Shown here piece by piece: positions 8,479-31,734 of a stretch of 64,000 bases of DNA. This DNA is from a virus: positions 3,222 to 67,221 of IMG/VR virus record IMGVR_UViG_3300015265_000205; one strand, written 5' to 3'. Position numbers and translations under genes: made by a program. How positions within the stretch are numbered: the first letter of the stretch is position 1; every line of letters starts with the position of its first letter. The notes under the pieces were generated by a model. The model saw only the letters and a list, made by a program, of their open reading frames with translations. It had not been told where the DNA came from and did not search any database.

Positions 8479-8940
8479 TCATGTGAATGCAAGCAGCTGG
8501 TTAATTACGTTGTCCAGGTCCTGCCTGGTGTATTTGGTCAAAATCCGGGACAAGATCACGTCGATGGTTGCGCTGTACAGCGACTCGAACTCGATCTCGT
8601 CCATCTGTGCAAAAGAAACGCTTTTTGCCTCCAGTCGCACCTCGCCCTTGAGGTTCACCGTCGATTCGAAGAATCCGGCCAGGATCGCCACGTCTTTGCG
8701 GAAACGTTCCTTGTTCTTCGCCACCGGCTGGCCCTGGTAGGTCAGGCCGCCGCGCGGCTCCCACTGGTCGAAGGCGAAGGACACCAAGGCGAAGTACTTC
8801 TTGTGGAATTTGTAATTCCGTACCTTCTTGAAGTCTGCGTGCATCAGCGCGCCAACCTTCATCTTCTGGATGAACTCGGCCGCCGCCTCGTCGTGCGGGA
8901 CGAGGACGTTTGCCGTTTTCATGAGCACGATTTCTGTCAA
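8479..8940 (-). CDS. DUF1367 family protein
   Basis: RNYKFHKKYFAL...FRKDVAILAGF...AKSVSFAQMDEIEF. Confidence 0.85.
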   Translation of the reverse strand: MTEIVLMKTANVLVPHDEAAAEFIQKMKVGALMHADFKKVRNYKFHKKYFALVSFAFDQWEPRGGLTYQGQPVAKNKERFRKDVAILAGFFESTVNLKGEVRLEAKSVSFAQMDEIEFESLYSATIDVILSRILTKYTRQDLDNVINQLLAFT

Positions 8941-8968
8941 GGCGGTGCTCCCGCGCGGCGCCAGGCCG

Positions 8969-9679
8969 TCACGCTGCAGGCGCCAGGTCGGCCACGTCGA
9001 TCACGATGCCGCGGCAATACGGCTCTCCGTCCTCCACGATTTCGAACGTGGCGTGTGGCACGTCGGTGCGGTAGGTCCAGCTGTAGCCGTCTTCCTTGCC
9101 CCAAAGAGCATCCACGGCGCGCACCTGTGGCGCCCGGGCGAAATAGTCCTTGAGGGCATCGTCGTCGTGCTGGATATCTTCGCGGAACGGCAGCAAGCCC
9201 TTGGCGTCGAGTAGTGCGATGGTCGGCGCGCCGCGCTCATCGTCCACGAAGCCACGGAACTCAATCAGGTCGTCGCTGGCGCCAAAGATCACGATCAGGC
9301 CGGCCGCCTTGGCCTGCTGCTCTTCTTCCTTGACCATTTCCTTACCGTATTCGCGCCCCGTCAGCAGGCCAGCCAGCAGTTCCTTGCTCAGCTTGACCGG
9401 CGCCAGCTCGACGGCCGGCATGCCCATGTTCGTGTACGGGTGCTTGTCGGCATGCGGCTTGATGTGTGCGTAAAAGTGCTTGCCGACGGATTCGGCGCCG
9501 GCGAAGGCTGCATACTCGGTGGCCGTGACGTTGGCGTAGTGGTACACATCCGCTGGCGCGCCCTTGCGGAAGAACTGCACGGCCAGGGTTTCGGTCGCCG
9601 GGCAGTGGCCGATGGCGGCGATCTGCGAGGATTGGATGGCTTGCAGGGTAATTTGTGGTGCTTCGACTGCTGTGTTCAT
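8969..9679 (-). CDS. KTSC-domain fusion protein
   Basis: SSQIAAIGH..TETLAVQF...YHYANV...AESVGKHF KTSC pattern plus a second domain (FGASDDLIEFRG...PHATFEI..YCRGIV). Confidence 0.75.
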   Translation of the reverse strand: MNTAVEAPQITLQAIQSSQIAAIGHCPATETLAVQFFRKGAPADVYHYANVTATEYAAFAGAESVGKHFYAHIKPHADKHPYTNMGMPAVELAPVKLSKELLAGLLTGREYGKEMVKEEEQQAKAAGLIVIFGASDDLIEFRGFVDDERGAPTIALLDAKGLLPFREDIQHDDDALKDYFARAPQVRAVDALWGKEDGYSWTYRTDVPHATFEIVEDGEPYCRGIVIDVADLAPAA

Positions 9680-14788: not shown

Positions 14789-15643
14789 CTACAGTGGCTC
14801 TTTCGCAAAAATCTGGCCGGTCTTGGTGCTATAGATCCAGACTTGAGACAAGGTGGTCACGATCGATGGACCCGACATAGCGATTTCTGTTGGGCTGTCC
14901 ATGGTTGCTTTCATGTAGTCGCTGTATCGTGCGGCATATGGTGCGCTCAAGTTCGCAATGTATAGGATGCCAATGTTTTCTTTGCTCTCCCTAGCAATCT
15001 CTGGAGAAACCTTAAAGGAAAAATCTGACGGGATGTTGACCGACCTGGATATAGAGTTTACATTGGCAAAAGTAATTCCGCAAACATCGTAGGTAAAGCT
15101 GGTAATTTCGACTTTTCTGCCATATCCATTCTCACCCACGTAAGTTCTGGAACTTGATAGCTCTTTGTTTATTGGTGCGGAAGTATAAAAATTTCCATTA
15201 ATCCGAACCGATCCACTACCGTGTGAAACTATACGGATTCTCATAGTTTCTGTGTCAGCATCGTATTTCGGCAACATCATAGGTTTCGACGGAGAAAATG
15301 CCAGTACACTCGATCCCGTCAGCTGCCCGTACAAGCGAGCATCTTTCACGAATTCAATACGATCCGCGAATGCCTTCGAACTCTCAAACTCATCTTTCTC
15401 TAGCTTGATCGAACTGAGAAGCCGTGAAATTTCGACGCAGCTGTGGCCTCGATAGTTGGCTGGCAGCGATTCTACGCTTGCATCGAAGGGCGCCACGTCG
15501 TAAGAACTGTAGCTTGGTGCCTTCTTTTCCTGCTGTTTAACCTGCTGCTTTTTAGCGCTAGTTTTTGATTTTGGGGCTTCTTGCGCCTGCAGGTGTGCAT
15601 GGAAGCTACTCAAAAATGCGATTGCAAAAAATGCTTTTTTCAT
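14789..15643 (-). CDS. Secreted/periplasmic moron protein downstream of cI
   Basis: Signal-peptide-like MKKAFFAIAFLSSFHAHLQAQE; AT-rich; own terminator. Confidence 0.8.
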   Translation of the reverse strand: MKKAFFAIAFLSSFHAHLQAQEAPKSKTSAKKQQVKQQEKKAPSYSSYDVAPFDASVESLPANYRGHSCVEISRLLSSIKLEKDEFESSKAFADRIEFVKDARLYGQLTGSSVLAFSPSKPMMLPKYDADTETMRIRIVSHGSGSVRINGNFYTSAPINKELSSSRTYVGENGYGRKVEITSFTYDVCGITFANVNSISRSVNIPSDFSFKVSPEIARESKENIGILYIANLSAPYAARYSDYMKATMDSPTEIAMSGPSIVTTLSQVWIYSTKTGQIFAKEPL

Positions 15644-15715
15644 TATGTGTTTTTTTTGAGCAATAAGATTATTAGTGTTTCTAGTTTGGAATTTTTGCAT
15701 AGAAATTAATCGCCA

Positions 15716-16411
15716 TTAAATTCTATCCCCTTCACGCCTCACGACTCTGCCGATAATAATGCACTCACCGTTTCTGCACATCTTACGGTGGAATTTTCTC
15801 TGGTCAGCATTATCGGAGGTTAGCCACCATTCGCCAATGTCACGCGAGAGACGTTTAACCACAACCTCTCCCTCATAATTCACTGCAAAAACCACACCGT
15901 CAGCTGGTTTGTTGTCATCCGTATTGAGGATGACAACATCATCTTCGTGCAATGCCGGCTCCATACTTTCGCCTTTAACTTTTATGGCGATTAGCTTTTC
16001 TGGGTTGTATCTATGCTTCGCCACCCATTTTGGGTCCAGTGCAATAGTCCCGCCATCTTCAAATTCCGGCTCTGTTTTAAATCCCGTCATTCCAGCGGAC
16101 AGGCGAAGTTTTACTTTTCTAATGAGGATGAACTCGGTGTCATGTAGCGCCTTGACTTCGACCTTGAGTGCGCCAGGAACGCCCGATGCTCCGGGCGACA
16201 GCGCCATCGGCCCCTCCCCAGTCTCAAGCCAAGTTGCCGAGCAACCCAAAATACTTTGAGCGTTGATCAGCCCCGCCTTCGAGATCCCTCGCGCCTCCCA
16301 GTTATTTATCACTTGCGAAGAAACGTTTAAGGCGCGCGCGACCTCGGCCTGGCTTTCAATGCCCTTGAGAGTCTTTGCAGCCTCGTAAAGTCGTGTCATC
16401 TGTATATGCAT
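15716..16411 (-). CDS. cI: CI-like repressor (HTH plus S24 peptidase)
   Basis: SQAEVARALNVSSQVINNWE HTH; LSAG cleavage site, VKGESMEP, VVKRL. Confidence 0.93.
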   Translation of the reverse strand: MHIQMTRLYEAAKTLKGIESQAEVARALNVSSQVINNWEARGISKAGLINAQSILGCSATWLETGEGPMALSPGASGVPGALKVEVKALHDTEFILIRKVKLRLSAGMTGFKTEPEFEDGGTIALDPKWVAKHRYNPEKLIAIKVKGESMEPALHEDDVVILNTDDNKPADGVVFAVNYEGEVVVKRLSRDIGEWWLTSDNADQRKFHRKMCRNGECIIIGRVVRREGDRI

Positions 16412-17894: not shown

Positions 17895-18117
17895 CCTGGG
17901 CGACATTGCGGGCGGCGCCCGGCGCAAGCACGGCGCAGGGCGAGCAGGGCGGCGACGCCCGGCAAGATCCGCACGATGGCGCGTTGCCTGTCGATCCTGG
18001 CCATGTGCGGACGCGTCAGCACTACGAAGCAATGCTCGAAGAGCAGCGCGCCAGCCAATAAAAAAGCCCGCTTGCAGGCGGGCTTCCTTGAAACGCTATA
18101 AATCTTTGAGAGAATTT

Positions 18118-18876
18118 ATGAGCCAAATTGTACAACACAAAGGCATCACGATAGCGAATACGCTGATCGCGGTCGATAAAGAAGGCCGCTTTTGCCTCAA
18201 CGACCTGCACAAGGCCGCGGGCGCGGAAAGCCGCCACCAGCCTGCATTCTTCTTCCGCCGCCCGGAAATCCAGGAACTGGAAGCGGAATTAAACTCTGCG
18301 CCGGCGCAGAGTTTGCAGACCATCACCACCCAAGGCCGTAACGGTGGCACCTACGTCTGCAAGGAACTGGTCTACGCCTACGCTATGTGGATCAGTCCCA
18401 AGTTCCACCTGGAAGTCATCCGCACCTTTGATGCCGTGGCCACCGGCCAGACGCCGGCCGCCGCGCCCGCGCGCAGCGCAGTCTCGCCCGCCAAGGAATT
18501 CCGCGCCATCTTCGGCATTGCACGCCTGATCGGCCTCGACAAGAATGCTGCGGCGATCAGCGCAAACCAGGGTACGGCCGCGCTGACCGGCGTGAACATG
18601 CTGCAGCTGATGGAGCGTACGCACCTGGCCACGCCCAGCCAGGAGATTTACTACACGCCGACGGAGCTGGGCAGCCGCTTCGTCAAGAGCGCCAAGGCGT
18701 TCAACCAGTTGCTGGTGCAGGCCGGTCTGCAAGAGAGTATTGCAGGCCATTGGGTACCGACGGAAAAGGGGCGCGCGCACGCTTTCGTGGCGGACACCGG
18801 CAAGGCGCACTCCAGCGGCACGCCTATCCAGCAAGTGAAATGGCGCGACTCGGTCCTGGCGGAGGTGGCATTGTGA
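18118..18876 (+). CDS. KilA-N domain (antirepressor-like) protein
   Basis: GRFCLNDLHKAAG, GGTYVCKELVYAYAMWISPKF. Confidence 0.88.
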   Translation: MSQIVQHKGITIANTLIAVDKEGRFCLNDLHKAAGAESRHQPAFFFRRPEIQELEAELNSAPAQSLQTITTQGRNGGTYVCKELVYAYAMWISPKFHLEVIRTFDAVATGQTPAAAPARSAVSPAKEFRAIFGIARLIGLDKNAAAISANQGTAALTGVNMLQLMERTHLATPSQEIYYTPTELGSRFVKSAKAFNQLLVQAGLQESIAGHWVPTEKGRAHAFVADTGKAHSSGTPIQQVKWRDSVLAEVAL

Positions 18877-18950
18877 ATAGCCTGTCGAGCAATCCGTCGA
18901 GCCCAAGCAAAGGTGCGCATCCATACGCCCATGCAAAAACGATAAGCGGT

Positions 18951-19199
18951 TTAGTTGATCAAATCGAGCACAGCACCGGAATTGATCAGTTCAAGGCTAT
19001 AGGCATCAGCCTCGATGAGCGCTGCACTCAATTTTTTAAACGCCGCTTGAGTGGAAACGATAACCGGAGGGGTAATTCGCTCTCCCGTATCTTCGCGACC
19101 CACAAAAAATATTTGCCCCCTGAAACGATTATCCGCTTCTTGAATCGCATCGACATGGTAGATGAAGCCACCGACGCAATGCATTTCTTTGGTTTTCAT
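18951..19199 (-). CDS. Antisense small protein A
   Basis: AAGGGA RBS, lower GC, extended -10 TG-A-TAGGGT at 19225-19233. Confidence 0.7.
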   Translation of the reverse strand: MKTKEMHCVGGFIYHVDAIQEADNRFRGQIFFVGREDTGERITPPVIVSTQAAFKKLSAALIEADAYSLELINSGAVLDLIN

Positions 19200-19309
19200 G
19201 TCATCCCTTCTTGCTCAAGAGTTAACCCTATCATTGCTATCAGTCTTCTAGGCGCTCGATACACTTTGATTGATGCGCCGCATGCGTTTGCGGTATCGGG
19301 AGGTCAGGG

Positions 19310-19654
19310 ATGAATTCCGCACGTCATTCCGCCAACGCCGACCGCGCCGCCGAAATTCTGGCCACAGTCAAGCGCTGTGGCGCCGCGACCATCGGCGATA
19401 TCGCCCTTGACCTGACGCTTCACCGCGAGACCGTGCGCAAACGCCTGGCCAAGCTGGTCACGGCCGGCCAACTCGTGTTGATCGAGCCGGCAGCTGCGCA
19501 CGTTCGCGCCCTGTACGGCATGCCCGATCTGGATGATCAGGCTGAATTCGACCTCTACCGTAATCGCAGCAGCAACTGGCCGCGCGGCGAGCACGGCCGT
19601 GATCCACTCGTCGCCGCCATGTTCGGCGCACCAGCTGCAGAGGTGCGCCCATGA
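19310..19654 (+). CDS. Winged-helix HTH protein
   Basis: ATIGDIALDLTLHRETVRKRLAKL. Confidence 0.75.
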   Translation: MNSARHSANADRAAEILATVKRCGAATIGDIALDLTLHRETVRKRLAKLVTAGQLVLIEPAAAHVRALYGMPDLDDQAEFDLYRNRSSNWPRGEHGRDPLVAAMFGAPAAEVRP

Positions 19655-21549
19655 AGCGCGACCTCATTACCATCGCCAAAGAATTCCGCCACTTTCATTT
19701 TTGCTGCGGCCTTGGCGGCGGGAAGCAAGGCTTTAATGCAGCGCAGCCACAGGTCGGCAATATGGCCGCGACGCTGCGCTGCATCGGCGGCATCGACAAT
19801 GATCCTGCGGCGATCCGCGACTTCGACCGTGCCGGCCCCGGCCGCCCTGGTACCGTCATGGACCTGTTCACGCGAGCCCAATATACGGCCTTTCACGGGA
19901 AAGAGCCGCCCCCACGCTGGCGCGAGGCTACTGCCGTCGATATCCGTCGTGCGGCCGGCAATGAATCGCCGAACATCGTATTCATCAGCTCCCCATGCAA
20001 GGGGGCCAGCGGCCTGCTGAGCGAAACGTTAAGCAAGACGGCAAAGTACCAGGCGTTGAACGAGTTGACGCTGCGCTGCATTTGGCTGATGTGCGAGGCC
20101 TGGGCCGACGACCCCGTCGACTTGATCGTGTTCGAGAACGTGCCTCGGCTCGCCACGCGCGGTCGGCACCTGCTCGACCAGATCAATCAGCTACTGCAGC
20201 AGTTCGGTTACGCCGTGGCCGAAACCACGCATGATTGCGGCGAGCTGGGCGGCCTGGCGCAAAGCCGCAAGCGGTTTTTGCTCGTGGCGCGCAACATGGA
20301 AAAAGTGCCACCATTCCTCTATGAGCCAGAGCGGAAGCGCCTGCGCGCCGTCGGCGACGTGCTGGGCCGCATGCCGTTCCCTGGCGATGCCGCTGGCGGC
20401 CCGATGCATCGTATTCCGCGCCTGCAGTGGAAAACGTGGGTGCGCCTGGCGTTTGTGGAGGCCGGCAGCGACTGGCGCTCCCTGAATAAGCTCACCGTCG
20501 AGAATGGCCACTTGGCTGATTACCTGATCATGCCTGAGCGCTTCGGCGACTACCTGGGTGTGAATGGCTGGGACGAGCATGCCGGCGCCGTGTCCGGACG
20601 CGGTACTCCGACGACGGGCGCGTATTCGGTCGCCGATCCGCGCATGGATACGGTTGCTGAATACAGCCAGTACGGTGTCATGCCTTGGGACGCAACCAGT
20701 GGCGTGGTCAGCGCGCAGTCAGCGCCTGGTGGCGGCCGTTATTCCGTAGCCGATCCACGCCCACCGGCCGGCCCGATATTCAGCAAGTACGCGGTCACCC
20801 GCTGGGATAAACGCACGGGCACCGTCATTGGCGGTGACGACCAGGGCGCCTACGCCGTGGCCGATCCACGATCGAGCACGGGCTTCGAAGGCGCAGGCAA
20901 GTACCTGGTCACGCCGTTCGATGAGGCGGCCGGCACGGTGATCGCTGGCAGCACGACCGGCCAGGGCGCATTCTGCGTCGCCGATCCCCGCGCGATCAAT
21001 CGCCAGAAAGGTGATGCATTCCTGACCGGCGGCCATTACGGCGTGCTGCCGTGGAATGGCCAGAGCGGCGCTGTCAGCGCATCGGCCGGCTACGACAATG
21101 GCCGCTGGAGCATCGCAGACCCGCGCATCGACGAAGCGCCGCAGCTGCCGGCCCTGAACCAGAAGACGGTCGCGCTTATTCGCGCGCTCGACAGCACCTG
21201 GCACCGGCCATTCACCACGCTGGAACTTGGGGCGCTGCAATCGCTGATCGATCCGGACGAGCACTGGTCGACCGATCCGCAAATCCAGCGTGAAATTGAC
21301 GAGCACAAGCGCCGGACCGGCGCCAGCGCCTTCCCGCTGCTCGATGGCACGAACGATAGCGCGCATCGCGAACGCATCGGCAATGCCGTCCCGAAGCTGG
21401 CCGCGCAGGCCATCGGCGAGGTGATGGGCACCACGTTGTTGCTGGCAGCTGCTGGCGAGACGTTCATGCTCAGCGCCATGCCGATATGGGTGCAGCCCGT
21501 GGCGATCGCGATTGCGGCGTCGCAGGCTGGCGCGGGAGGTGAGTTGTGA
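19651..21549 (+). CDS. DNA (cytosine-5) methyltransferase with repeat-expanded variable region
   Basis: FCCGLGG (I), SSPC (IV), ENV (VI), QSRKR (VIII), IGNAVP (X). Confidence 0.9.
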   Translation: MKRDLITIAKEFRHFHFCCGLGGGKQGFNAAQPQVGNMAATLRCIGGIDNDPAAIRDFDRAGPGRPGTVMDLFTRAQYTAFHGKEPPPRWREATAVDIRRAAGNESPNIVFISSPCKGASGLLSETLSKTAKYQALNELTLRCIWLMCEAWADDPVDLIVFENVPRLATRGRHLLDQINQLLQQFGYAVAETTHDCGELGGLAQSRKRFLLVARNMEKVPPFLYEPERKRLRAVGDVLGRMPFPGDAAGGPMHRIPRLQWKTWVRLAFVEAGSDWRSLNKLTVENGHLADYLIMPERFGDYLGVNGWDEHAGAVSGRGTPTTGAYSVADPRMDTVAEYSQYGVMPWDATSGVVSAQSAPGGGRYSVADPRPPAGPIFSKYAVTRWDKRTGTVIGGDDQGAYAVADPRSSTGFEGAGKYLVTPFDEAAGTVIAGSTTGQGAFCVADPRAINRQKGDAFLTGGHYGVLPWNGQSGAVSASAGYDNGRWSIADPRIDEAPQLPALNQKTVALIRALDSTWHRPFTTLELGALQSLIDPDEHWSTDPQIQREIDEHKRRTGASAFPLLDGTNDSAHRERIGNAVPKLAAQAIGEVMGTTLLLAAAGETFMLSAMPIWVQPVAIAIAASQAGAGGEL

Positions 21550-22025
21550 TGGCGAACACTCGAACCGAAGCCGGCCGCTTCATGGCTGGCAAAAGCTATT
21601 CGCCGGCCACGCAGTTCAAGCCTGGCCAACATCCGGCGCCGGCGACAGAAATTCAGCCTGGCCAGCGGCTCTCGCCGGCCACGGAATTCAAGCCCGGCAT
21701 GGACGCGCACAACCGGCTACCTGTCGGCGCCGTGCGCGTGCGCCGCGAAACGCATACCGGACTCGATCGCGCCTGGGTAAAAACGGCCGAGCCGAACGTA
21801 TGGCGCAAGCGGGCGGTGCTGGTATGGGAGGCGGAGCACGGACCGGTGGCGCGCGGCCTGGTCATTCACCACCGCGACCGTGACAGCTTGAACGACGCGC
21901 CGGCCAATCTCCAGGCGCTGACGCGCAAGGAGCATGCGGACGAGCACCGTTGCGAACTAGAGTCAGCCCGCGCGCGTAACGGTGCCAACTTCGCGCATGA
22001 GCGCGAGATTGCGAGGGTGGCGTGA
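21546..22025 (+). CDS. HNH endonuclease with N-terminal (S/A)PATxF/IxPG repeats
   Basis: VIHHRDRDSLNDAPANLQAL..H. Confidence 0.8.
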   Translation: MMANTRTEAGRFMAGKSYSPATQFKPGQHPAPATEIQPGQRLSPATEFKPGMDAHNRLPVGAVRVRRETHTGLDRAWVKTAEPNVWRKRAVLVWEAEHGPVARGLVIHHRDRDSLNDAPANLQALTRKEHADEHRCELESARARNGANFAHEREIARVA

Positions 22026-22027
22026 AC

Positions 22028-22261
22028 TTATCCGGCCTCCGTCGCAAGCCTTTGATTTACCCAGCGCTTCCCATATTCGCGTCCGCTGTTCAGGGCTTCA
22101 TCGAGCGTATTGCAAGCAGGGATGTCTGCAAGGCGGTGGCACTCACCCCCAAAGTTCGGGCAAATGTCCACTACGTTAATAAACATTGGCCTCCCTTCTA
22201 TTTCCCGTTCCTGAACGTCAGAAAGAATCACAAAAGTTTTGTACGGGACGCTATCGCTCAT
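22028..22261 (-). CDS. Antisense small protein B
   Basis: GAGG RBS, lower GC, extended -10 TG-T-TACGAT at 22287-22295. Confidence 0.72.
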   Translation of the reverse strand: MSDSVPYKTFVILSDVQEREIEGRPMFINVVDICPNFGGECHRLADIPACNTLDEALNSGREYGKRWVNQRLATEAG

Positions 22262-22294
22262 TTCAGCCTCGACTTAATAAAAGGATATCGTAAC

Positions 22295-22726
22295 ATGATC
22301 GCCAACCCCGCTCAAATCACCCGCCACCACATGGCGAACCAGGCCGCGCCCGCCTATTCGCTTATCCGCAAGGTCTGCGCCTGCGGCAAGGCCAGCACCG
22401 CTAAACAACTGTCCCAGCACGGCAAATGCGCCGCCTGCGCGCTGGCCGCCGTCCGCGCCGCAATCATGCCCGGCGACTTCGCCAAGCTGCAGCACATGCT
22501 GGGCGCCGTGCAGCAATATCCGAAGTCAAAGTGGGGCTGGCGCAATTATTTTGCCGCCGGCAGCGGCCAGCAGCACGAGGCCATGCAGCGCCTGGTGTCC
22601 GCCGGCCTGGCCACAGCCAGCCGGGCCGCCAACGAAATGACCTACTTCCATGCTACTCGCTTGGGCTGCAAGGCTGCTGGCCTCGATGCCGCTGGCATCA
22701 AGCGCGCGATGGAGGATGCATCGTGA
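22295..22726 (+). CDS. Hypothetical protein
   Basis: AAAGGA RBS; CACG..CAAC; WGWRNYF. Confidence 0.7.
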   Translation: MIANPAQITRHHMANQAAPAYSLIRKVCACGKASTAKQLSQHGKCAACALAAVRAAIMPGDFAKLQHMLGAVQQYPKSKWGWRNYFAAGSGQQHEAMQRLVSAGLATASRAANEMTYFHATRLGCKAAGLDAAGIKRAMEDAS

Positions 22727-23337
22727 CCATCAAAATTTCGACCGCAACCGTATTCCACGGCGGCCGGCGCCGCTGGTTATCGCTGGCTGCCGCGTGCAAT
22801 GCCGAGGCTGCCGCCATCTTGAGCAGGTTTTGCGACTGCTCGCCCGGCAACGGGCATGACGTCGCGCCGGAAACTTGCACCATGCATCAGGATGCCGATC
22901 GCTATCACCAGGTTCGCGCCAAACTGGTGGCCCGGGCGCGCCGGTGCGCTGTGGCGTCGCCTGCCGACCTGCCTGCACCCGAGCAGCGCGCGCTGGCCGC
23001 CTGTCGGGAGTTGGTAGCCGCAGCCGGCGAGGTCAAGCGCATCAGCAAGGTCATCGGCGACAGCCTGAGCGCATGCCCGATGATGAAAGACCCTGTCGAA
23101 TTCAACGACAGAGGCCCGGCTACACATCTTTCGCAGGCCTACGCCTCCGAAAACGTCGAGAACGACAGCGGCCACGGCATGCACAAGGAATGGATGGAGC
23201 CGAGCGACGCGCTGAAAATTATTAGCGCATGCCCGCATTGCCTCGCCGCCCACAAAGCAATTCAAGAGCGCAAGGTCGCGCGCCGCCGGCTGGGCGCGGC
23301 ACGCCGTGCTGTGACGATGATCGGGCGCGCGCCATGA
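22723..23337 (+). CDS. Hypothetical protein
   Basis: GTGA-coupled; CPHC motif. Confidence 0.65.
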   Translation: MTIKISTATVFHGGRRRWLSLAAACNAEAAAILSRFCDCSPGNGHDVAPETCTMHQDADRYHQVRAKLVARARRCAVASPADLPAPEQRALAACRELVAAAGEVKRISKVIGDSLSACPMMKDPVEFNDRGPATHLSQAYASENVENDSGHGMHKEWMEPSDALKIISACPHCLAAHKAIQERKVARRRLGAARRAVTMIGRAP

Positions 23338-23339
23338 AA

Positions 23340-23564
23340 TTACCCGGCTGCAAGCCTATTTACATACTCTTTTGCTTTTTCCATCGCGTTCGATTCTGCC
23401 AAGGTCGGAGTATCGAGCGCGCTTACGATATCTGCGCCATGAATTTTGGCGCCATCTTTGTGGACTCGAAAGATGCCAAACCACTGGCCCGGGGTTTTGC
23501 TTTCGTAGGCGCCAAATTCAATGACGTGGCCCTTGTAGTCGCGCTGGGTTGTCGTAATCGGCAT
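23340..23564 (-). CDS. Antisense small protein C
   Basis: AAGGA RBS, lower GC, extended -10 TG-C-TAAAAT at 23589-23597. Confidence 0.75.
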   Translation of the reverse strand: MPITTTQRDYKGHVIEFGAYESKTPGQWFGIFRVHKDGAKIHGADIVSALDTPTLAESNAMEKAKEYVNRLAAG

Positions 23565-23596
23565 ATCAGAATCCTTAATAAAAAGGAAATTTTAGC

Positions 23597-24136
23597 ATGA
23601 TGCGCCGATCACCACTAAAGCCCGGAGCTGGCTTTAAAAGCCGAGCCTTCGCGCGCGGCGAGCGCATCGAGGCGCGCGAAGTGTCAAAGCTCAAGCGCGC
23701 CTCGCCAATGGCCAGCACCGGCATGCTCTCCGTGCAGTCGCACCAGCGCACGGCGAAGACGCGCAAGGCCGGATTGAAATCAAAAGAGCGCGCCGTCACG
23801 GCCGCCGAGAAATTGCTGTGGTCCCGCTTGGCCGCGCTGGGCTGCGTCGCCTGCGCGAAGGACGGCAATTTCAATCCTCACGTCAGCATTCATCACGTCG
23901 ACGGCCGGACGAAGCCTGGCTGCCACCAGCTCGTGCTGCCACTTTGCGCCGGTCACCACCAGGACGGTACCGGCCAAGACAAGACGATGGTCGCGGTTCA
24001 TCCATGGAAGGCGCGTTTCGAAGCGCGCTACGGCACGCAGGCCGAACTGATGGATGAGTGCGCGCAACTCTTATTTGAAAAGCAGGGCGCTGCGGCGTCG
24101 CCTGCCACCATTCAACCTACATTGGAACACCCATGA
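23597..24136 (+). CDS. Ref-like (recombination enhancement) HNH nuclease
   Basis: LGCVAC..SIHHVDGR..VLPLCAGHHQ..FEARYGTQ. Confidence 0.75.
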   Translation: MMRRSPLKPGAGFKSRAFARGERIEAREVSKLKRASPMASTGMLSVQSHQRTAKTRKAGLKSKERAVTAAEKLLWSRLAALGCVACAKDGNFNPHVSIHHVDGRTKPGCHQLVLPLCAGHHQDGTGQDKTMVAVHPWKARFEARYGTQAELMDECAQLLFEKQGAAASPATIQPTLEHP

Positions 24137-26760
24137 GCGCATTTAGCCCGCAAGAGCAAAAACACCTGAAAGAAGCCGCGTACAGTGAATTCCTGCGCGC
24201 CAAGATCAAGCTGGCCCAGCGCAAGGGCTTCGACGTGCCGCTGGCCGATATCCACCCTGGCCTCAAGCCACACACCCGCGACATCGTGCGCTGGGCCTTG
24301 GCCGGCGGCCAGCGCGCCATCTTCGCCTCGTTCGGCCTGCACAAGACCAGCACCAACCTAGAGGTGATGCGCCAGATCGGCATCCACCGGCCAGGCCTGC
24401 GCCTGATCGTGCTGCCACTGGGCGTGCGCCAGGAGTTCATCCGCGAGGCCGCGAAGCGCTTCACCGGCGAGTACGAAGTGCAGGTGCGCTTCATCCGTAC
24501 GGACGCCGAGATCGACGGCCAGGACGTCGTCTACCTGACGAATTACGAATCGGTGCGCGAGGGCAAGATTGATGTGCGCAAGTTCCGCGCCGTCGGCCTG
24601 GACGAGGCCAGCGTGCTGCGCAGCTACGGCAGCAAGACCTATCAAGAGTTCCTGCCACTGTTCGAGCAGGTCGAGTTCAAGTTCGTCTACACGGCCACGC
24701 CGTCACCTAACCGTTTCAAGGAATTGATCCACTATGCGGGCTTCCTGGGCGTGATGGACACCGGCCAGGCCCTGACGCGCTTTTTCCAGCGCGACAGCGA
24801 GAAGGCCGGCAACCTGACGCTGTACCCGCACAAGGAACAGGAATTCTGGCTGTGGGTGGCCAGCTGGGCGGTTTTCATCCAGCGCCCGAGCGACCTTGGC
24901 CATTCGGACGAAGGCTACGATCTGCCGGCGCTGGATGTGCGCTTTCACGAGGTGCCGAGCAACTACAGCACGGCCGGCGCCGAAAAGAACGGCCAGGGCC
25001 TGCTGATCCCGAACGTGGCCATGGGCCTGTCGGCCGCTGCCGGCGAGAAGCGCGACAGCATGGCCGCGCGCGTCGCCAAGGTGGCCGAGATCATGGCTGA
25101 GGATCCTGATGATCATTTCCTGATCTGGCACGACTTGGAGGACGAGCGGCACGCCATCCAGGCGGCCGTGCCCGGCGTGGTCAGCGTGTGGGGCACGCAG
25201 GACCTGGACCAGCGTGAGCAGCGGATCGCCGATTTCAGCGATGGCAAGATCAAGGATCTGTCGACCAAGCCAATCATCGCCGGCAGCGGCTGCAACTTCC
25301 AGGTGCACTGCCACCGCGAGATTTTCGCGGGTATCGGCTTCAAGTTCAACGATTTCATCCAGGCCGTCCACCGCGTCCAGCGCTTCCAGCAGCAGCACGC
25401 CGTCCGTATCGACATCATCCACACGGAAGTCGAGCGCAAGGTACTGGCCGACCTGATGGAAAAATGGCGCCGCCACGACGAAATGCAGGCCAAGATGGGC
25501 CAGATCATCCGCGCCTATGGCCTCGACCAGCTGTCCATGCAGGACTCGCTCGCGCGCACCATTGGTGTCGAGCGCGCCGTCGTAGCCGGCGAGCGGTTCT
25601 CGGTGGCTAACAACGACTGCATGCTCGAAGCCATGCAGCAGCCGGACAACTCGGTGGGCATGATCATCACCAGCGTCCCGTTCGCCAACCATTACGAATA
25701 CACGCCCAGTTACAACGACTTCGGCCACACCCAGGACAACGACCATTTTTGGGCGCAGATGGACTTCCTGACGCCGGAACTGCTGCGTATCCTGCAGCCT
25801 GGCCGCATTTACGCTTGCCACGTGAAGGACCGGATCAATTTCGGCAACGTTACCGGCGCCGGCGTGCCGACTGTCAGCCCGTTCCATGCCGAGGCGCTGT
25901 TTCACGGTATTAAGCACGGCTTCGACTACATGGGCATGATCACCGTCGTGACAGATGTGGTGCGCGAAAACAACCAGACCTACCGCCTGGGCTATTCCGA
26001 AGTGTGCAAGGACGGCACGAAGATGGGCGTCGGCTCGCCGGAATACATCCTGCTGTTCCACAAGCCGCAGACGGACCGCTCGCGCGGCTACGCCGATGTA
26101 CCGGTTACGAAGGCAAAGCCGCTGTGCCTGGATGATGCCGGCGACCGGATCCCGTTTGATCGCAAGGCCGCGCCCATTCCCGGTACCGGCTACAGCGTGG
26201 CACGCTGGCAGGTCGACGCGCATGCGTTCTGGCGCTCCAGTGGCGATCGCCTGCTGGGCGCGGCCGAGCTGGCCAGCTTCGGGCCGGGCAAGCTGGCGAA
26301 GCTTTTCACCAGCATGTCGCTGGACAACGTCTACAACTACGAATACCACGTCGAGGTGGGCGAGGCGCTGCTGTCCGGCAAGGCGCTGCCTGCGGATTAC
26401 CTCAGCCTGGCGCCGGGCAGCGCTGACCCGGCCGTGTGGCACGACATCGTGCGCATGCGCACTTTGAATGGTGAGCAGTCGGCGCGCGCGGTCGAAAAGC
26501 ACGTTTGCCCGTTCCAGATCGATATCGTGGACCGTCTGATCGGCCGTTACAGCAATCCGGGCGAGGTGATCTATGACCCATTCTGCGGCCTGGGCACCGT
26601 GCCCGTGCGCGCCATGAAGCTGGGCCGTCAGGGACGCGGCAGCGAGCTGAACCCGGCATATTTCGCTGACCAGGTGCACTACTGCCAAGCGATGGAGCGC
26701 GAAGTCAGCATGCCTACGCTATTCGATATGGAACTGATGGACGAGGAGAATGCGAAGTGA
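24133..26760 (+). CDS. SNF2-like helicase fused to an amino (N4-C/N6-A) DNA methyltransferase
   Basis: GLHKT, LDEAS, TATP in the N-half; ITSVPF and YDPFCGLGT in the C-half. Confidence 0.85.
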   Translation: MSAFSPQEQKHLKEAAYSEFLRAKIKLAQRKGFDVPLADIHPGLKPHTRDIVRWALAGGQRAIFASFGLHKTSTNLEVMRQIGIHRPGLRLIVLPLGVRQEFIREAAKRFTGEYEVQVRFIRTDAEIDGQDVVYLTNYESVREGKIDVRKFRAVGLDEASVLRSYGSKTYQEFLPLFEQVEFKFVYTATPSPNRFKELIHYAGFLGVMDTGQALTRFFQRDSEKAGNLTLYPHKEQEFWLWVASWAVFIQRPSDLGHSDEGYDLPALDVRFHEVPSNYSTAGAEKNGQGLLIPNVAMGLSAAAGEKRDSMAARVAKVAEIMAEDPDDHFLIWHDLEDERHAIQAAVPGVVSVWGTQDLDQREQRIADFSDGKIKDLSTKPIIAGSGCNFQVHCHREIFAGIGFKFNDFIQAVHRVQRFQQQHAVRIDIIHTEVERKVLADLMEKWRRHDEMQAKMGQIIRAYGLDQLSMQDSLARTIGVERAVVAGERFSVANNDCMLEAMQQPDNSVGMIITSVPFANHYEYTPSYNDFGHTQDNDHFWAQMDFLTPELLRILQPGRIYACHVKDRINFGNVTGAGVPTVSPFHAEALFHGIKHGFDYMGMITVVTDVVRENNQTYRLGYSEVCKDGTKMGVGSPEYILLFHKPQTDRSRGYADVPVTKAKPLCLDDAGDRIPFDRKAAPIPGTGYSVARWQVDAHAFWRSSGDRLLGAAELASFGPGKLAKLFTSMSLDNVYNYEYHVEVGEALLSGKALPADYLSLAPGSADPAVWHDIVRMRTLNGEQSARAVEKHVCPFQIDIVDRLIGRYSNPGEVIYDPFCGLGTVPVRAMKLGRQGRGSELNPAYFADQVHYCQAMEREVSMPTLFDMELMDEENAK

Positions 26761-30632: not shown

Positions 30633-30655
30633 TGCAGGTTTTCTTTAAGCCTGTG

Positions 30656-30695
30656 TTTACAAACAGTATTTCTGCGGTATACTTCAGACCATAAT
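30656..30695 (+). promoter_or_regulatory. pR'-like late promoter with sigma-dependent pause element
   Basis: TTTACA-N16-TATACT, then a -10-like CATAAT at about +1..+6. Confidence 0.7.
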
Positions 30696-30836
30696 TCAAG
30701 AAAATTCTTCCGGAAATCGTAATGTGCGCATCGCGCCACCGATAGCTGGAACTCGCGACAGTACCCGGACCCAGCGCCGTACCTGCACGCCTTGAATTTG
30801 CCGCTCACCACGCACTATGGCCGTGGGAGCAAGCCA

Positions 30837-30868
30837 AGCCCGACGCGCAAGCGACTCGGGCTTTTTTC
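30837..30868 (+). terminator. tR'-like intrinsic terminator
   Basis: AGCCCGA...TCGGGCT hairpin plus T-tract. Confidence 0.75.
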
Positions 30869-30873
30869 ATTGA

Positions 30874-31107
30874 TTATGTTTTGTGTATTGCAAAAACTGC
30901 TAAACGCCACTGGATTGGTTGATTTGCAGGGTGCTGCGCATGAATTTGCGGTGGCAGGATGTGCCCTTTAGCAATTCCGATTTCATGACCACATCCATCG
31001 CAACGATAGATGCCCGCGTCCGGAGCTGCAATGCCTGGGTTGTGCAGTAGGTCAAACGCCCTATGGTCAATCTTCGAAACAAACTGATCATATTTAAAGC
31101 TAGCCAT
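30874..31107 (-). CDS. Small zinc-ribbon moron (YjzC / 'protein L'-like)
   Basis: APDAGIYRCDGCGHE..LPPQ.H; GGAGGG RBS; AT-rich. Confidence 0.75.
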   Translation of the reverse strand: MASFKYDQFVSKIDHRAFDLLHNPGIAAPDAGIYRCDGCGHEIGIAKGHILPPQIHAQHPANQPIQWRLAVFAIHKT

Positions 31108-31435
31108 TGATTCCCTCCGTTTGAGTTGATGAAAAGTGTATTGGTTTATGCCAACTTCTTATTATTGCACATTGTCGCTTTGAAATTTTTAAATGATAAC
31201 AATTGCATTTTCTTGCCTCACTGGCGCAACCTGTATCCATACAGCAACAGCGACATCGTGCGCGATGAAGCAAAATTCGCAGGCATTTAGACCGCGAACA
31301 CGCTGAGCCGCAGCGCTTGTCGGCTGATGACTCGAAGGTAGTCATGTAAGCCGACCGGCCAGCAGGTTTGCTGCTGTGTGGCTGACGCGCGGACCTGACG
31401 GCTTGAAAGCTGCATAAGGTCACCGGTTCGATTTC

Positions 31436-31509
31436 GCGGGTGTAGCTCAATGGCAGAGCGGAAGCCTTCCAAGCTTTCCACGCGGGTTCGATTCCCGCCG
31501 CCCGCTCCA
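31436..31509 (+). tRNA. tRNA-Gly(TCC)
   Basis: Full cloverleaf GCGGGTG..GCTC/GAGC..GAAGC-CTTCCAA-GCTTT..GCGGG-TTCGATT-CCCGC..TCCA. Confidence 0.93.
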
Positions 31510-31587
31510 AATTCTCCTTGCCCGGTACGCTGGGTTTCGCCGCTGGCCGCATCACTGCGCTGGCGGTTTTTCTATTTGAGGTGCTGC

Positions 31588-31734
31588 ATGTTCGATATCG
31601 ACTTCCGCCGGATGATTATCACCATCGCGTTGGCGGGCGCCGTGATCGGTGGTACCGTCGTCGCGCTCATGCTGCTGGCTTGGCCCTGGCTGTGGGCCAT
31701 CGCCAAGCCAGCGCTGCACGCCTGGACGACCTAA
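31588..31734 (+). CDS. Small membrane protein
   Basis: GAGG RBS; hydrophobic MIITIALAGAVIGGTVVALMLLAWPWLW. Confidence 0.55.
   Translation: MFDIDFRRMIITIALAGAVIGGTVVALMLLAWPWLWAIAKPALHAWTT

What the first reader, a model, noticed from the sequence alone, without database searches (positions are those of the whole stretch)
18951..23564. Three hidden antisense genes encode divergent members of one small-protein family
Seen: reverse-strand ORFs of 82, 77 and 74 aa (18951-19199, 22028-22261, 23340-23564), each with an RBS and lower GC. They begin with similar strands (VGGFIY / YKTFVI / YKGHVI). They end in an ungapped 20-residue helix: FKKLSAALIEADAYSLELIN / CNTLDEALNSGREYGKRWVN / LDTPTLAESNAMEKAKEYVN, with invariant A7 and N20, small residues at 11 and 15, and hydrophobic 18-19. 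Inference: a diversified beta-beta-beta-alpha family repeatedly inserted into the lytic operon and expressed from the lysogen, perhaps inhibitors of host or rival-phage proteins. This is the best candidate for an undescribed system in this window.
Basis: partly seen in the sequence, partly recalled or inferred. Interest (0 to 1): 0.85.

Follow-up and report, generated by a model that had tools for sequence, protein, structure and literature searches.

The report
Backward small genes in phage operon
Three small genes that run backwards inside a prophage's early operon are real, most likely belong to one little-known protein family of unknown function, and sit in swap-in slots where the forward strand is kept readable right across them.

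Summary
The three minus-strand ORFs (82, 77 and 74 aa) exist as described, each with an RBS and GC 0.47-0.52 against 0.61-0.67 in neighbours.

Its register and its "A7" are nevertheless right.

- **ORF3** is a divergent member of Pfam DUF6566, a family of unknown function with one NMR structure, 2KON (local HMM E 4e-6; hhalign 97.5%).
- **ORF2** probably belongs too (hhalign 92%, full length).
- **ORF1** links only through a sister branch (78%, then 93%).

So the family is real but not undescribed.

The host is Janthinobacterium. In related prophages the same positions hold many unrelated reverse-oriented, low-GC genes, so these are exchangeable cargo slots.

Unexpectedly, every cargo lies inside a forward "bridge" ORF. 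The bridge starts on the upstream gene's stop (NTGA) and ends on, or fuses to, the next gene's ATG (23 of 24 slots in register with the cargo). Cargo genes almost lack TTA/CTA/TCA codons: 2 seen against 22-61 expected.

A promoter-like extended -10 overlaps the next forward gene's ATG in 17 of 24 slots.

Expression in the lysogen and any inhibitor function remain untested.

The parts
18951..19199 (-). ORF1, 82 aa. A reverse cargo gene, tentatively in the 'B-type' branch of the DUF6566-like superfamily.
   Evidence: ORF and RBS. GC 0.47. Four variants at 82-98% identity. An 80-aa relative in L052. hhalign to B-type: 78%, P 1.8e-5. ORF1 family merged with B-type against the DUF6566-like set: 95.4%. 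ORF1 family alone: only 21-42%.
22028..22261 (-). ORF2, 77 aa. A reverse cargo gene and a probable DUF6566-like protein.
   Evidence: ORF and RBS. GC 0.51. Only one distant relative among 1.84 billion representatives: P0022, 50% identity, E 7e-15. A relative sits in the same slot of L021. hhalign: 92.3%, P 5.5e-7, 68 columns. The Atlas holds its own model of it, pLDDT 0.84, with structural neighbours at TM 0.81-0.84.
23340..23564 (-). ORF3, 74 aa. A reverse cargo gene and a divergent DUF6566 / 2KON-fold protein.
   Evidence: ORF and RBS. An HMM built from 6 Pfam-passing DUF6566 proteins hits it at E 4e-6 among 8113 ORFs. jackhmmer seeded with it recovers the Pfam members. hhalign: 97.5%, P 6e-12. 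AF2 pLDDT 80. Among its top two Foldseek hits is 2kon, with the highest TM, 0.65/0.60.
18873..19313 (+). Forward bridge ORF 1, 146 codons. It runs antisense across ORF1.
   Evidence: Its GTG overlaps the KilA-N gene's stop (GTGA, 18873-18876). Its TGA overlaps the g114 ATG (ATGA, 19310-19313). No internal stop.
22022..22294 (+). Forward bridge 2. It runs antisense across ORF2 and is fused in frame to g143 (22295-22726).
   Evidence: Its GTG overlaps the HNH gene's stop (GTGA, 22022-22025). The frame is open through to the g143 stop at 22726.
23334..23600 (+). Forward bridge ORF 3, 88 codons. It runs antisense across ORF3.
   Evidence: Its ATG overlaps the g204 stop (ATGA, 23334-23337). Its TGA overlaps the Ref-like gene's ATG (ATGA, 23597-23600).
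22287..22315 (-). Promoter-like element facing ORF2: TTGAGC, 17 nt, TACGAT, with TG at the extended -10 position. It overlaps the g143 start codon. Its function is inferred only.
   Evidence: Read from the sequence. The TGnTAnnAT motif lies at the same offset in 17 of 24 slots. The consensus scan did not list it (8 of 12 matches; the scan needs 9).
23589..23597 (-). Extended -10-like element, TGcTAAAAT, facing ORF3. It overlaps the Ref-like gene's start codon. Its function is inferred only.
   Evidence: No good -35 hexamer.
18088..26760 (+). The forward early operon that carries the slots: KilA-N (18088-18876), g114 (19310-19654), C5 methylase (19651-21549), HNH (21546-22025), g143 (22295-22726), g204 (22723-23337), Ref-like nuclease (23597-24136), helicase/methylase (24133-26760).
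   Evidence: Pfam and PHROG matches. With the bridges included, all nine junctions are 4-nt NTGA overlaps.

Best explanation
The window is the early region of a Janthinobacterium prophage. ORF1-3 are real accessory ('moron'-type) genes. They sit in reverse orientation in three exchangeable cargo slots between forward early genes.

**Shown**
- ORF3 is a divergent member of the DUF6566 family (four strands then a helix, the 2KON fold). ORF2 probably is too.
- ORF1 matches a sister branch that lies next to DUF6566 genes in chromosomes.
- The slots hold unrelated cargo, or none, in relatives.
- Each cargo lies wholly inside a forward ORF that is joined by start/stop overlaps to the genes on both sides.
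- Cargo genes avoid the three codons that would read as stops on the other strand.

**Inferred**
- In the lysogen the early operon is repressed. The cargo is then transcribed from an outward-facing promoter that overlaps the start codon of the next forward gene.
- During lytic growth, ribosomes pass across the reversed cargo on the bridge ORF. Translational coupling, and protection of the long transcript from polarity, are thereby kept.
- The proteins are small and soluble with no catalytic motif. They most likely act by binding another protein or a nucleic acid. My guess is that they bind a target from the host or from an incoming phage, to the benefit of the lysogen.
For: **Context.**
- S24 cI-type repressor, HTH, KilA-N, C5 methylase, HNH, Ref-like nuclease, helicase/methylase.
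- The record is a provirus.
- 15 of the 17 genome loci found with the Ref-like protein are titled Janthinobacterium.

**Family.**
- A local HMM built from 6 Pfam-passing DUF6566 proteins hits ORF3 at E 4e-6 among 8113 ORFs.
- jackhmmer from ORF3 converges on 53 hits that include those members.
- hhalign against the DUF6566-like set with ORF3 left out: ORF3 97.5%, ORF2 92.3%, ORF1 42%. 0 of 100 column shuffles reach any of the three scores. The 16 control proteins reach at most 31.7%.
- ORF1 against B-type: 78%, with controls at most 0.8%. B-type against the DUF6566-like set: 93%. ORF1 merged with B-type: 95%.
- The 27-sequence profile hits PDB 2kon_A at E 5.9e-4.
- 23 of those 27 sequences match PF20204.
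- 2kon has the highest TM score among the Foldseek hits of the ORF3 model.

**Slots.**
- Close relative L012 has slot 1 empty, and slots 2 and 3 filled by other reverse ORFs of 85 and 205 aa.
- 21 distinct slot-2 loci carry at least a dozen cargo kinds.
- Metagenome contigs join 22025 to 22294 and 18876 to 19326, skipping the cassettes.

**Bridge.**
- In 23 of 24 slots the forward frame in register with the cargo is open. It ends on the next gene's start (16 slots), is fused to it (6), or ends 1 nt before it (1). The 24th slot has an open bridge in another register.
- 23 of 23 bridges have a start codon overlapping the upstream gene's stop.
- TTA/CTA/TCA codons: 2 of 3075 in cargo against 89 of 10055 in other window genes (Fisher P 1e-8). 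Given Leu and Ser content, 22-61 would be expected.

**Promoter-like motif.** Present at a fixed offset in 17 of 24 slots.
Against: **Family membership.**
- None of ORF1-3 matches the Pfam DUF6566 model itself, even at E 10.
- ORF2 and ORF1 are not found by plain HMM or jackhmmer searches (ORF2 E 3.4).
- ORF1 alone scores no better than one of the 16 controls (22.9 against 20.1). After the B-type row is removed from the target it scores 20.2.
- Direct profile comparisons between the three families give 0.1-9.4%.

**Structure.**
- Foldseek finds no match at E <= 0.001 in PDB or BFVD.
- The ORF1 model is of low confidence.

**Expression signals.**
- The consensus scan finds no sigma-70 promoter, and only one weak terminator-like site near ORF1.
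- No expression data of any kind were found.

**Function.**
- No defence-system model matches: PADLOC gave 0 of 10 proteins.
- Chromosomal DUF6566 genes have no conserved neighbourhood that hints at a function.

**Independence.** Many slot loci share homologous flanks, so they are not fully independent samples.
Confidence: 0.6

Rival explanations
1. The three genes are real morons but are not one family. ORF3 is DUF6566-like. ORF1, and perhaps ORF2, are unrelated small proteins of a common strands-then-helix shape, and the resemblance is convergent or due to chance.
For: - BLASTP finds nothing for ORF1 against the other two.
- Family-to-family hhalign gives 0.1-9.4%.
- ORF1 alone against the DUF6566-like set gives 21-42%, matched by one control at 31.7%.
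- The Pfam model hits none of the three.
- The slots also hold many unrelated cargo kinds.
Against: - ORF2 against the DUF6566-like set: 92%, P 5.5e-7, over its full length. 0 of 100 shuffles and 0 of 16 controls come near.
- Independent Atlas leads point to DUF6566 for both ORF2 and ORF3.
- ORF1 against B-type: 78%, P 1.8e-5, 70 columns, with controls at most 0.8%. B-type against the DUF6566-like set: 93%.
- All three C-terminal helices fall in one register on the family's invariant Ala.
Confidence: 0.25
2. The forward bridge ORFs are the real genes, and the minus-strand ORFs are shadow frames.
For: - The in-register forward frame is open in all three window cases.
- It is coupled to both neighbours.
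- Bridge 2 would simply make g143 a 234-aa protein starting at the GTGA overlap.
Against: - The minus frames encode members of a family that also exists as ordinary chromosomal genes and has a solved structure.
- Lengths and family motifs are kept at 31-50% identity.
- Each minus ORF has its own RBS.
- Bridge peptides differ completely between phages that share flanks, because the cargo differs.
- The PHROG match of g143 begins after residue 56 of the short, 143-aa form.
Confidence: 0.03
3. Both strands code for functional proteins. The bridge peptides have their own role, as was proposed for the antisense pair olg1 / gene 10 of Pseudomonas phage Fc02.
For: - The bridges are open, have starts and stops placed for translation, and are under selection to stay open.
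- The abstract of PMC9936078 (abstract only read) reports a lysogen-expressed 7.9-kDa exclusion gene that overlaps, in antisense, a lytic-operon gene which also shows exclusion.
Against: - Bridge sequences are as varied as the cargo, and look like antisense translations rich in Cys, His and Arg.
- Selection for an open frame is enough to explain the data, without any function for the peptide.
Confidence: 0.1
4. The proteins are small regulators or nucleic-acid binders acting on the phage's own neighbouring genes, or antitoxin-like partners, rather than inhibitors of foreign proteins.
For: - ORF2 and ORF3 start only 33 and 32 nt from the start of the divergent forward gene.
- A DUF6566-like gene lies directly upstream of the Ref-like nuclease gene in the window and in L019, L037 and L058. 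These are distant phages, with Ref identity 38-49% by tblastn.
- Non-significant Foldseek neighbours include dsRBD and RNase H parts and PUR repeats for the ORF1 model.
- One Atlas neighbour cluster carries the name 'HlyU' in 16% of its members.
Against: - None of those fold matches is significant (E >= 0.13).
- ORF3-type cargo also occurs upstream of g143 (L062) and elsewhere, so the pairing with Ref is not fixed.
- No toxin-like partner gene was seen next to them.
Confidence: 0.2
5. ORF1 (B-like) and ORF3 (A-like) act together as a heterodimer. This would copy the overlapping A-B gene pairs of DUF6566-like genes seen in Oxalobacteraceae chromosomes.
For: - A-type and B-type genes overlap by 4-8 nt in three chromosomal loci (L071, L073, L074).
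- ORF3 resembles A and ORF1 resembles B.
- Complex prediction for ORF3 + ORF1 gave weak support: score 0.32, best of 3 controls 0.02.
  - That mark was reached by 58 of 80 solved complexes and 2 of 110 mismatched pairs.
  - At 0.60 or under it was reached by only 7 of those 80, and by both mismatches that passed.
  - The runs agree in at least 0% of contacts, and the partner's pLDDT is at least 75.
Against: - The three runs scored 0.00, 0.54 and 0.32. The tool states that such a pass is more often wrong than right unless it was likely beforehand.
- The two genes lie 4 kb apart.
- They occur without each other in relatives: L052 has only the ORF1 type, and L062, L019 and L037 have only the ORF3 type.
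Confidence: 0.12

Closest known systems
Pfam DUF6566 (PF20204) and PDB 2KON (CV_2116 of Chromobacterium violaceum, NMR, 'uncharacterized protein')
   Same: - Size about 75-85 aa.
- Strands followed by one C-terminal helix.
- The Y-[KR]-G-aromatic-x-I strand, a Trp or Phe in the next strand, an invariant Ala in the helix, and a final [IV]-[DN].
- ORF3 is recovered by HMMs built from family members, and its model resembles 2KON.
   Different: - ORF1-3 do not reach the Pfam model's cut-off.
- They are phage-borne, low in GC, and reverse-oriented inside an operon. The Pfam-passing members found here are scattered chromosomal genes.
- No function is known for the family, and no paper was found.
Phage 'morons' and accessory-gene hotspots of temperate phages
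   Same: - Extra genes between conserved genes.
- Deviant GC.
- Present or absent, or replaced, among close relatives.
- Thought to be expressed from the prophage.
   Different: - As I recall the definition, classical morons have their own promoter and terminator and lie between operon genes. Here the cargo is reversed and has no predicted terminator.
- The promoter-like element is built into the start of the next conserved gene.
- The whole cassette is spanned by a coupled forward ORF.
Pseudomonas phage Fc02 olg1 / gene 10 antisense overlap (PMC9936078, abstract only read)
   Same: A small lysogen-expressed gene overlaps, on the opposite strand, an ORF of the lytic operon in the early regulatory region of a temperate phage.
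   Different: - In Fc02 both overlapping genes are reported to give superinfection exclusion. Here the forward partner looks like a mere ribosome bridge, and nothing has been tested.
- No sequence comparison with Fc02 was made here.
T7 gp1.2 (inhibitor of E. coli dGTPase, PDB 7U66 chain G)
   Same: A small phage protein of similar size. It is the top Foldseek hit of the ORF3 model by E-value (E 0.13, TM 0.55/0.49). It is an example of a small protein that acts as a binding inhibitor.
   Different: The match is not significant, with 7% identity. gp1.2 is a lytic-phage early protein in forward orientation. Membership is not claimed.

Membership tests
Pfam DUF6566 (PF20204) | Score over the Pfam gathering cut-off (26.7 bits) | tested here: not met
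   No PF20204 hit for ORF1-3 or their 16 relatives, even at E 10. No hit on the whole provirus record at E 10.
Pfam DUF6566 (PF20204) | Significant match to a profile built from sequences that do pass the Pfam cut-off | tested here: inconclusive
   Met for ORF3: E 4e-6, 26 bits, among 8113 ORFs. Not met for ORF2 (E 3.4) or for ORF1 (not listed at E <= 10).
Pfam DUF6566 (PF20204) | Profile-profile similarity over the full domain, above controls | tested here: met
   - ORF3: 97.5%, 69 columns.
- ORF2: 92.3%, 68 columns.
- ORF1 is met only through the B-type branch: 78%, then 93%; merged, 95.4%.
- ORF1 alone: 21-42%, not above the best control.
Pfam DUF6566 (PF20204) | Fold like the solved member 2KON | tested here: inconclusive
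   - ORF3 model against 2kon: TM 0.65/0.60, probability 1.00, but E 0.14.
- ORF2: only the Atlas's own model, whose neighbours (TM 0.81-0.84) in part carry DUF6566 'under the bar'.
- ORF1: the model has pLDDT 59.6 and 2kon is not among its listed hits.
Pfam DUF6566 (PF20204) | Signature residues of the alignment made here: YxG-aromatic-x-I, Trp in the following strand, invariant Ala in the helix | tested here: inconclusive
   - ORF3 has all of them: YKGHVI, W28, A56.
- ORF2 has YKTFVI (no Gly), Phe in place of Trp, and the Ala.
- ORF1 has GGFIYHV, Phe in place of Trp, and the Ala.
Phage moron (as recalled: an independently transcribed extra gene) | Present or absent, or replaced, among close relatives, with deviant base composition | tested here: met
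Phage moron (as recalled: an independently transcribed extra gene) | Own promoter and terminator | tested here: inconclusive
   The consensus scan finds none. A conserved extended -10-like motif faces the cargo in 17 of 24 slots. There is no terminator apart from one weak site after ORF1. Transcription was not measured.
Known anti-phage defence systems (PADLOC-DB 2.0) | Match to any defence protein model | tested here: not met
   0 of 10 proteins matched at E <= 0.01. The ten were ORF1-3 and seven other slot cargo proteins.
HicB-type antitoxin N-terminal domain (a resemblance recalled from memory only) | Pfam HicB-family match and an adjacent HicA-like toxin gene | tested here: not met
   The Pfam scans at E 10 listed no HicB family. 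No adjacent small toxin-like ORF was seen. No direct profile comparison with HicB was made.

The most novel reading that the evidence does not exclude
Temperate phages of this group have built-in 'cargo sockets'.
- The first codons of a conserved forward gene carry an outward promoter.
- Any gene placed there in reverse is expressed in the lysogen.
- Such a gene is tolerated in the lytic operon only if it contains no TTA, CTA or TCA codon, so that a forward bridge ORF, coupled by NTGA overlaps at both ends, carries ribosomes across it.

This would be a general and so far undescribed constraint: antisense stop-codon avoidance for the sake of translational relay or anti-polarity.

DUF6566-like proteins would then be a favoured cargo, a new family of small prophage-encoded binding proteins.
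Probability: 0.45. Interest if true: 0.8.

Novelty: new variant of a known kind. Interest (0 to 1): 0.66.

Why it matters
**For the family.** DUF6566 has a solved structure but no known function. Finding it as recurrent, reverse-oriented prophage cargo gives a concrete setting in which to test it: lysogen fitness, superinfection, and binding partners.

**For phage genome architecture.** The bridge ORFs and the near-absence of antisense-stop codons show that a gene can be inserted backwards into a tightly coupled operon without breaking it, and that selection on one strand shapes codon choice on the other. If this is general, it has three consequences:
- It explains how lysogen-expressed genes colonise lytic operons.
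- It gives a simple sequence signature for finding such cargo, which could include new defence or counter-defence genes.
- It warns annotators that in these regions both strands have long open frames.

Tried and rejected
**Searches that found nothing useful**
- Pfam and PHROG scans of ORF1-3: nothing below E 0.03.
- Word-index homologue searches: only close relatives.
- Viral-contig scans: none for ORF1 and ORF3. The 11 ORF2 hits were rejected: of the 3 loci inspected (L001, L008, L011), two matches lie in an alternate frame of a 185-aa ORF I take to be a terminase small subunit, and one lies in a 46-aa ORF; the other 8 share L001's match span and identity. The same loci later contaminated the ORF2 jackhmmer.
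- Genome-contig scan with ORF3: none.
- The deep HMMER hit P0023 is a low-complexity repeat protein and was rejected.
- tblastn of ORF1-3 against 50,697 phage records: no match.
- PADLOC: none.
- Literature: no paper with DUF6566 or PF20204. Searches on antisense stop-codon depletion and on morons with translational coupling gave nothing on point. One search gave the Fc02 paper.

**Structure comparison**
- Foldseek of the ORF3 model against PDB and BFVD, and of the ORF1 model against PDB: no match at E <= 0.001.
- The PUR-repeat hits of the low-confidence ORF1 model are not used.

**Not run or incomplete**
- The metagenome-contig scan did not complete because the machine was busy, and I did not repeat it.

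**Expression and sequencing runs**
- No RNA holder was listed.
- The four runs laid are contigs and cannot show transcripts. The part without cover at 22080-22243 is not used as evidence on its own.
- A codon-position analysis of substitutions in ORF3 was not possible, because the laid differences for that stretch were not listed.

**Context**
- The chromosomal neighbours of DUF6566 genes showed no common theme.

**Idea dropped**
- That the motif CTTAATAAAAGGA shared by slots 2 and 3 is a repeat of its own. It is the forward gene's RBS region, and equally the 5' leader of the cargo.

Full report
**1. What is there**

The window is part of a 67-kb provirus record.

Around the finding lies a typical temperate-phage early region:
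- an S24 cI-type repressor on the minus strand (15716-16411)
- a forward operon: HTH protein, KilA-N protein (18088-18876), g114 (19310-19654), C5 DNA methylase (19651-21549), HNH endonuclease (21546-22025), g143 (22295-22726), g204 (22723-23337), Ref-like RecA-dependent nuclease (23597-24136) and a helicase/methylase (24133-26760)

Of the 17 bacterial genome loci found with the Ref-like protein, 15 are titled Janthinobacterium. The other two are a Burkholderiaceae MAG and a Herbaspirillum.

The three reported minus-strand ORFs are exactly as described.
- They fill the three gaps in the forward operon.
- Each has a Shine-Dalgarno-like run 4-7 nt before its ATG.
- Their GC is 0.47-0.52, against 0.61-0.67 for the neighbours.

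**2. Are they genes?**

Yes, on the minus strand.
- ORF3 has 14 variants at 78-92% identity, 13 of them 74 aa and one 73 aa.
- ORF1 has four variants at 82-98% identity, and an 80-aa relative in locus L052 (37% identity by tblastn).
- ORF2 has only one distant relative among 1.84 billion representative proteins: P0022, 76 aa, 50% identity, E 7e-15. It also has a relative in the same genomic position in locus L021.

The forward frame in register with each ORF is also open. I therefore considered the reverse reading, that the forward frames are the genes. I reject it. The minus frames belong to a protein family that also exists as ordinary chromosomal genes (section 3). The forward peptides change completely wherever the cargo changes (section 5).

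**3. Are they one family?**

- 163 of 2000 shuffles reach the score of the quoted 20-residue triple alignment.
- BLASTP links only ORF2 and ORF3, at E 0.01.
- Direct profile comparisons of the three small families give probabilities of 0.1-9.4%.
- Pfam and PHROGs give nothing.

Outside relatives change the picture.
- The ESM Atlas pointed, as a lead only, to Pfam DUF6566 (PF20204) for both ORF2 and ORF3.
- I collected DUF6566 and DUF6566-like genes from 301 Burkholderiales and 201 Oxalobacteraceae genomes. 2 of 301 and 4 of 201 had a match over the cut-off. 45 of 201 had a match at E <= 0.05.

Results for ORF3:
- An HMM built from six sequences that pass the Pfam cut-off hits it at E 4e-6 among 8113 ORFs.
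- jackhmmer seeded with ORF3 converges on 53 hits that include those six.

hhalign against the resulting 44-row set, with ORF3 and its L062 relative left out:

| Query | Probability | P | Columns aligned |
|---|---|---|---|
| ORF3 family | 97.5% | 6e-12 | 69 |
| ORF2 family | 92.3% | 5.5e-7 | 68 |
| ORF1 family | 42% | 2.6e-4 | 52 |

- None of 100 column shuffles reaches any of these three scores.
- Sixteen real control proteins reach at most 31.7% (score 20.1), which is close to ORF1's score of 22.9.

ORF1 is better explained through a sister branch.
- In three Oxalobacteraceae chromosomal loci (L071, L073, L074), the DUF6566 gene ('A') overlaps by 4-8 nt a second small gene ('B').
- The ORF1 family matches B at 78% (P 1.8e-5, 70 columns), with controls at most 0.8%.
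- B matches the DUF6566-like set at 93%.
- ORF1 merged with B matches that set at 95.4%.

A 27-sequence profile gives two further links.
- It hits the NMR structure 2KON (an uncharacterized 82-aa protein of Chromobacterium violaceum) at E 5.9e-4.
- 23 of its 27 members match PF20204.

Structure predictions:
- ORF3 (AF2, pLDDT 80): four strands then a helix. 2KON is among its top two PDB matches and has the highest TM score, 0.65/0.60, although no Foldseek match reaches E 0.001.
- ORF1 (AF2): the same order of elements, at low confidence, pLDDT 59.6.

It is Lys in 3 of 5 sequences of ORF1's own alignment.

My estimates that each ORF belongs to the family: ORF3 about 0.95, ORF2 about 0.8, ORF1 about 0.6.

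The family is therefore real but not undescribed. Its function is unknown, and the paper library holds nothing under its names.

**4. Cargo slots**

Close relative L012 (g204 95% identical) differs from the window at all three positions:
- It has only 62 nt where ORF1 lies.
- It has an 85-aa reverse ORF with a C-terminal hydrophobic stretch where ORF2 lies.
- It has a 205-aa reverse ORF with N-terminal hydrophobic stretches where ORF3 lies.

Slot 2, just upstream of g143, was examined in 21 distinct loci.
- It nearly always holds a low-GC (0.46-0.54) reverse ORF.
- These are of at least a dozen unrelated kinds, from 61 to 217 aa.
- One is DUF6680.
- An ORF2-type gene sits there in L021, and an ORF3-type gene sits there in L062.

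DUF6566-like reverse genes also occur elsewhere:
- directly upstream of the Ref-like gene in the distant phages L019, L037 and L058
- at other positions in L024, L033, L058 and L029

Other evidence for cassette exchange:
- Metagenome contigs join 22025 to 22294 and 18876 to 19326, skipping the ORF2 and ORF1 cassettes.
- Relatives with slot 1 empty show that the ORF1 cassette was inserted into the 5' end of an ancestral, longer g114. That g114 began at a GTGA overlap with the KilA-N gene.

**5. Forward bridge ORFs (not in the finding)**

From 18088 to 26760, every junction of the forward operon is a 4-nt NTGA start/stop overlap, provided three extra forward ORFs are counted:
- 18873-19313
- 22022-22294, fused in frame to g143
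- 23334-23600

Each of these runs antisense across one cargo gene.

The same holds in relatives.
- In 23 of 24 slots the forward frame in register with the cargo is open across it. It ends on the start codon of the next gene in 16 slots (ATGA, TAATG or TGATG). It is fused to that gene in 6 slots. It ends 1 nt before it in 1 slot.
- The remaining slot (L012, slot 2) has an open bridge in another register.
- In 23 of 23 slots, the bridge has an in-frame start codon overlapping the stop of the long upstream forward gene.

Codon counts agree. TTA, CTA and TCA read as stops on the other strand.

| Gene set | TTA/CTA/TCA codons | Total codons | Share |
|---|---|---|---|
| 12 DUF6566-like or ORF1-3-type cargo genes | 0 | 1183 | 0% |
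| 16 other cargo genes | 2 | 1892 | 0.11% |
| 23 other window genes | 89 | 10055 | 0.89% |
| 2 low-GC genes beside the operon (14789-15700 and cI) | 12 | 534 | 1.7-2.6% each |
| 20 chromosomal DUF6566-like genes | 12 | 1590 | 0.75% |

- Cargo against the other window genes gives Fisher P 1e-8.
- Given the cargo's Leu and Ser content, 22-61 such codons would be expected against 2 seen. 27 of 28 cargo genes have none.

What is shown is selection for an open, coupled forward frame. What I infer is its purpose: ribosomes are relayed across the reversed insert, which keeps translational coupling and protects the transcript from polarity.

The loci share homologous flanks, so they are not fully independent. 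The cargo and its length differ, however, so register and openness had to be met anew for each cargo kind.

**6. Promoter-like element**

- In 17 of 24 slots, the minus strand reads TGnTAnnAT (an extended -10) at a fixed offset, with its TG inside the complement of the next forward gene's ATG. Two more slots have it shifted by 2-3 nt.
- For ORF2, a TTGAGC hexamer lies 17 nt upstream, inside codons 5-7 of g143.
- Slots with longer spacers carry other candidates, for example TTGACA-17-TAAAGT in L058 and L020 (read from the sequences printed).
- The standard scan did not list these sites, and nothing was measured. This is a hypothesis.

**7. Function**

There is no catalytic motif, no defence-model match and no informative chromosomal context.

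The most likely mode of action is binding of a protein or a nucleic acid. I hold this loosely.

The alternatives are a regulatory role on neighbouring genes, functional bridge peptides as proposed for Fc02 (abstract of PMC9936078), and an ORF1-ORF3 heterodimer. For the heterodimer, complex prediction gave weak support:
- Score 0.32, best of 3 controls 0.02.
- That mark was reached by 58 of 80 solved complexes and 2 of 110 mismatched pairs. At 0.60 or under it was reached by only 7 of those 80, and by both mismatches that passed.
- The runs agree in at least 0% of contacts, and the partner's pLDDT is at least 75.

**8. Verdict**

The family and the repeated insertion hold. The claim that it is undescribed does not. 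Expression and inhibitor function are untested.
- The proteins are divergent members of a known domain of unknown function.
- The socket architecture (outward promoter-like motif, reverse cargo, coupled bridge ORF, antisense-stop avoidance) is the more novel part. I found no description of it in the searches I ran.

Supplementary files of papers were not consulted.

Noticed in passing
window 18873-19313, 22022-22294, 23334-23600 (+); the same in loci L012-L062: Forward 'bridge' ORFs span each reversed cargo gene and are joined by NTGA overlaps to both neighbours. Cargo genes almost lack TTA, CTA and TCA codons: 2 of 3075, against 0.9% elsewhere in the window.
   Followed up: yes
window 22287-22315 (-) and 23589-23597 (-); 17 of 24 slots in related loci: An extended -10-like motif, TGnTAnnAT, lies on the minus strand and overlaps the start codon of the next forward gene (g143 or the Ref-like gene). 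It faces the cargo. On the forward strand, the same stretch is that gene's RBS region (CTTAATAAAAGGA).
   Followed up: partly
window 21985-22027 vs L012 5241-5283: The last 43 nt of the upstream gene are 97.7% identical, although the genes differ: HNH endonuclease in the window, a 765-aa methylase in L012. Both end in ...ANFAHEREIARVA. This conserved left border may serve cassette exchange by recombination.
   Followed up: partly
L071 1492-2005, L073 1230-1722, L074 1238-1725; also L064-L067: Oxalobacteraceae chromosomes carry tandem pairs of two DUF6566-like small genes (A-type and B-type), overlapping by 4-8 nt in L071, L073 and L074. They sit between unrelated housekeeping genes.
   Followed up: partly
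L070 925-1881 (+): A DUF6566 domain (30 bits) forms the C-terminal part of a 318-aa ORF. An Atlas neighbour cluster with the same arrangement is named a putative transposase with DUF4096.
   Followed up: no
L058 6445-6969 (-) and 4685-5188 (-): Two longer reverse cargo proteins (174 and 167 aa) contain a DUF6566-like domain joined to extra sequence. One of them lies directly upstream of the Ref-like gene.
   Followed up: no
L034 5258-5833 (-), L027 5111-5719 (-), L024 3659-4303 (-), L023 3619-4272 (-), L012 6678-7295 (-): Other slot cargo are 191-217-aa proteins with N-terminal hydrophobic stretches. One is DUF6680 (E 4e-44). None matches PADLOC. They are candidates for exclusion or abortive-infection functions.
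   Followed up: partly
window 25600-26235 (query positions 8607-9235): Part of the helicase/methylase gene is 80-85% identical at the DNA level to Arthrobacter and Mycobacterium phage genes. That is a striking similarity across phyla for a Janthinobacterium prophage.
   Followed up: no
window 30633-31648: Another lower-GC gap (0.52) in the forward gene run. It holds a 77-aa minus ORF with a CxxC pair (30874-31107), which has 2 antisense-stop codons. Next to it is a stretch whose translation looks to me like a tRNA gene read as protein. I did not run a tRNA search.
   Followed up: no
window 61260-62846: A 1.6-kb stretch of GC 0.38 near the right end of the window, far below the rest. It may be the prophage border or foreign DNA.
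   Followed up: no
window 14789-15700 (-): A 303-aa low-GC (0.45) gene lies next to the cI repressor and outside the forward operon. It has 8 TTA/CTA/TCA codons (2.6%). I used it only as a control, and its function was not examined.
   Followed up: no
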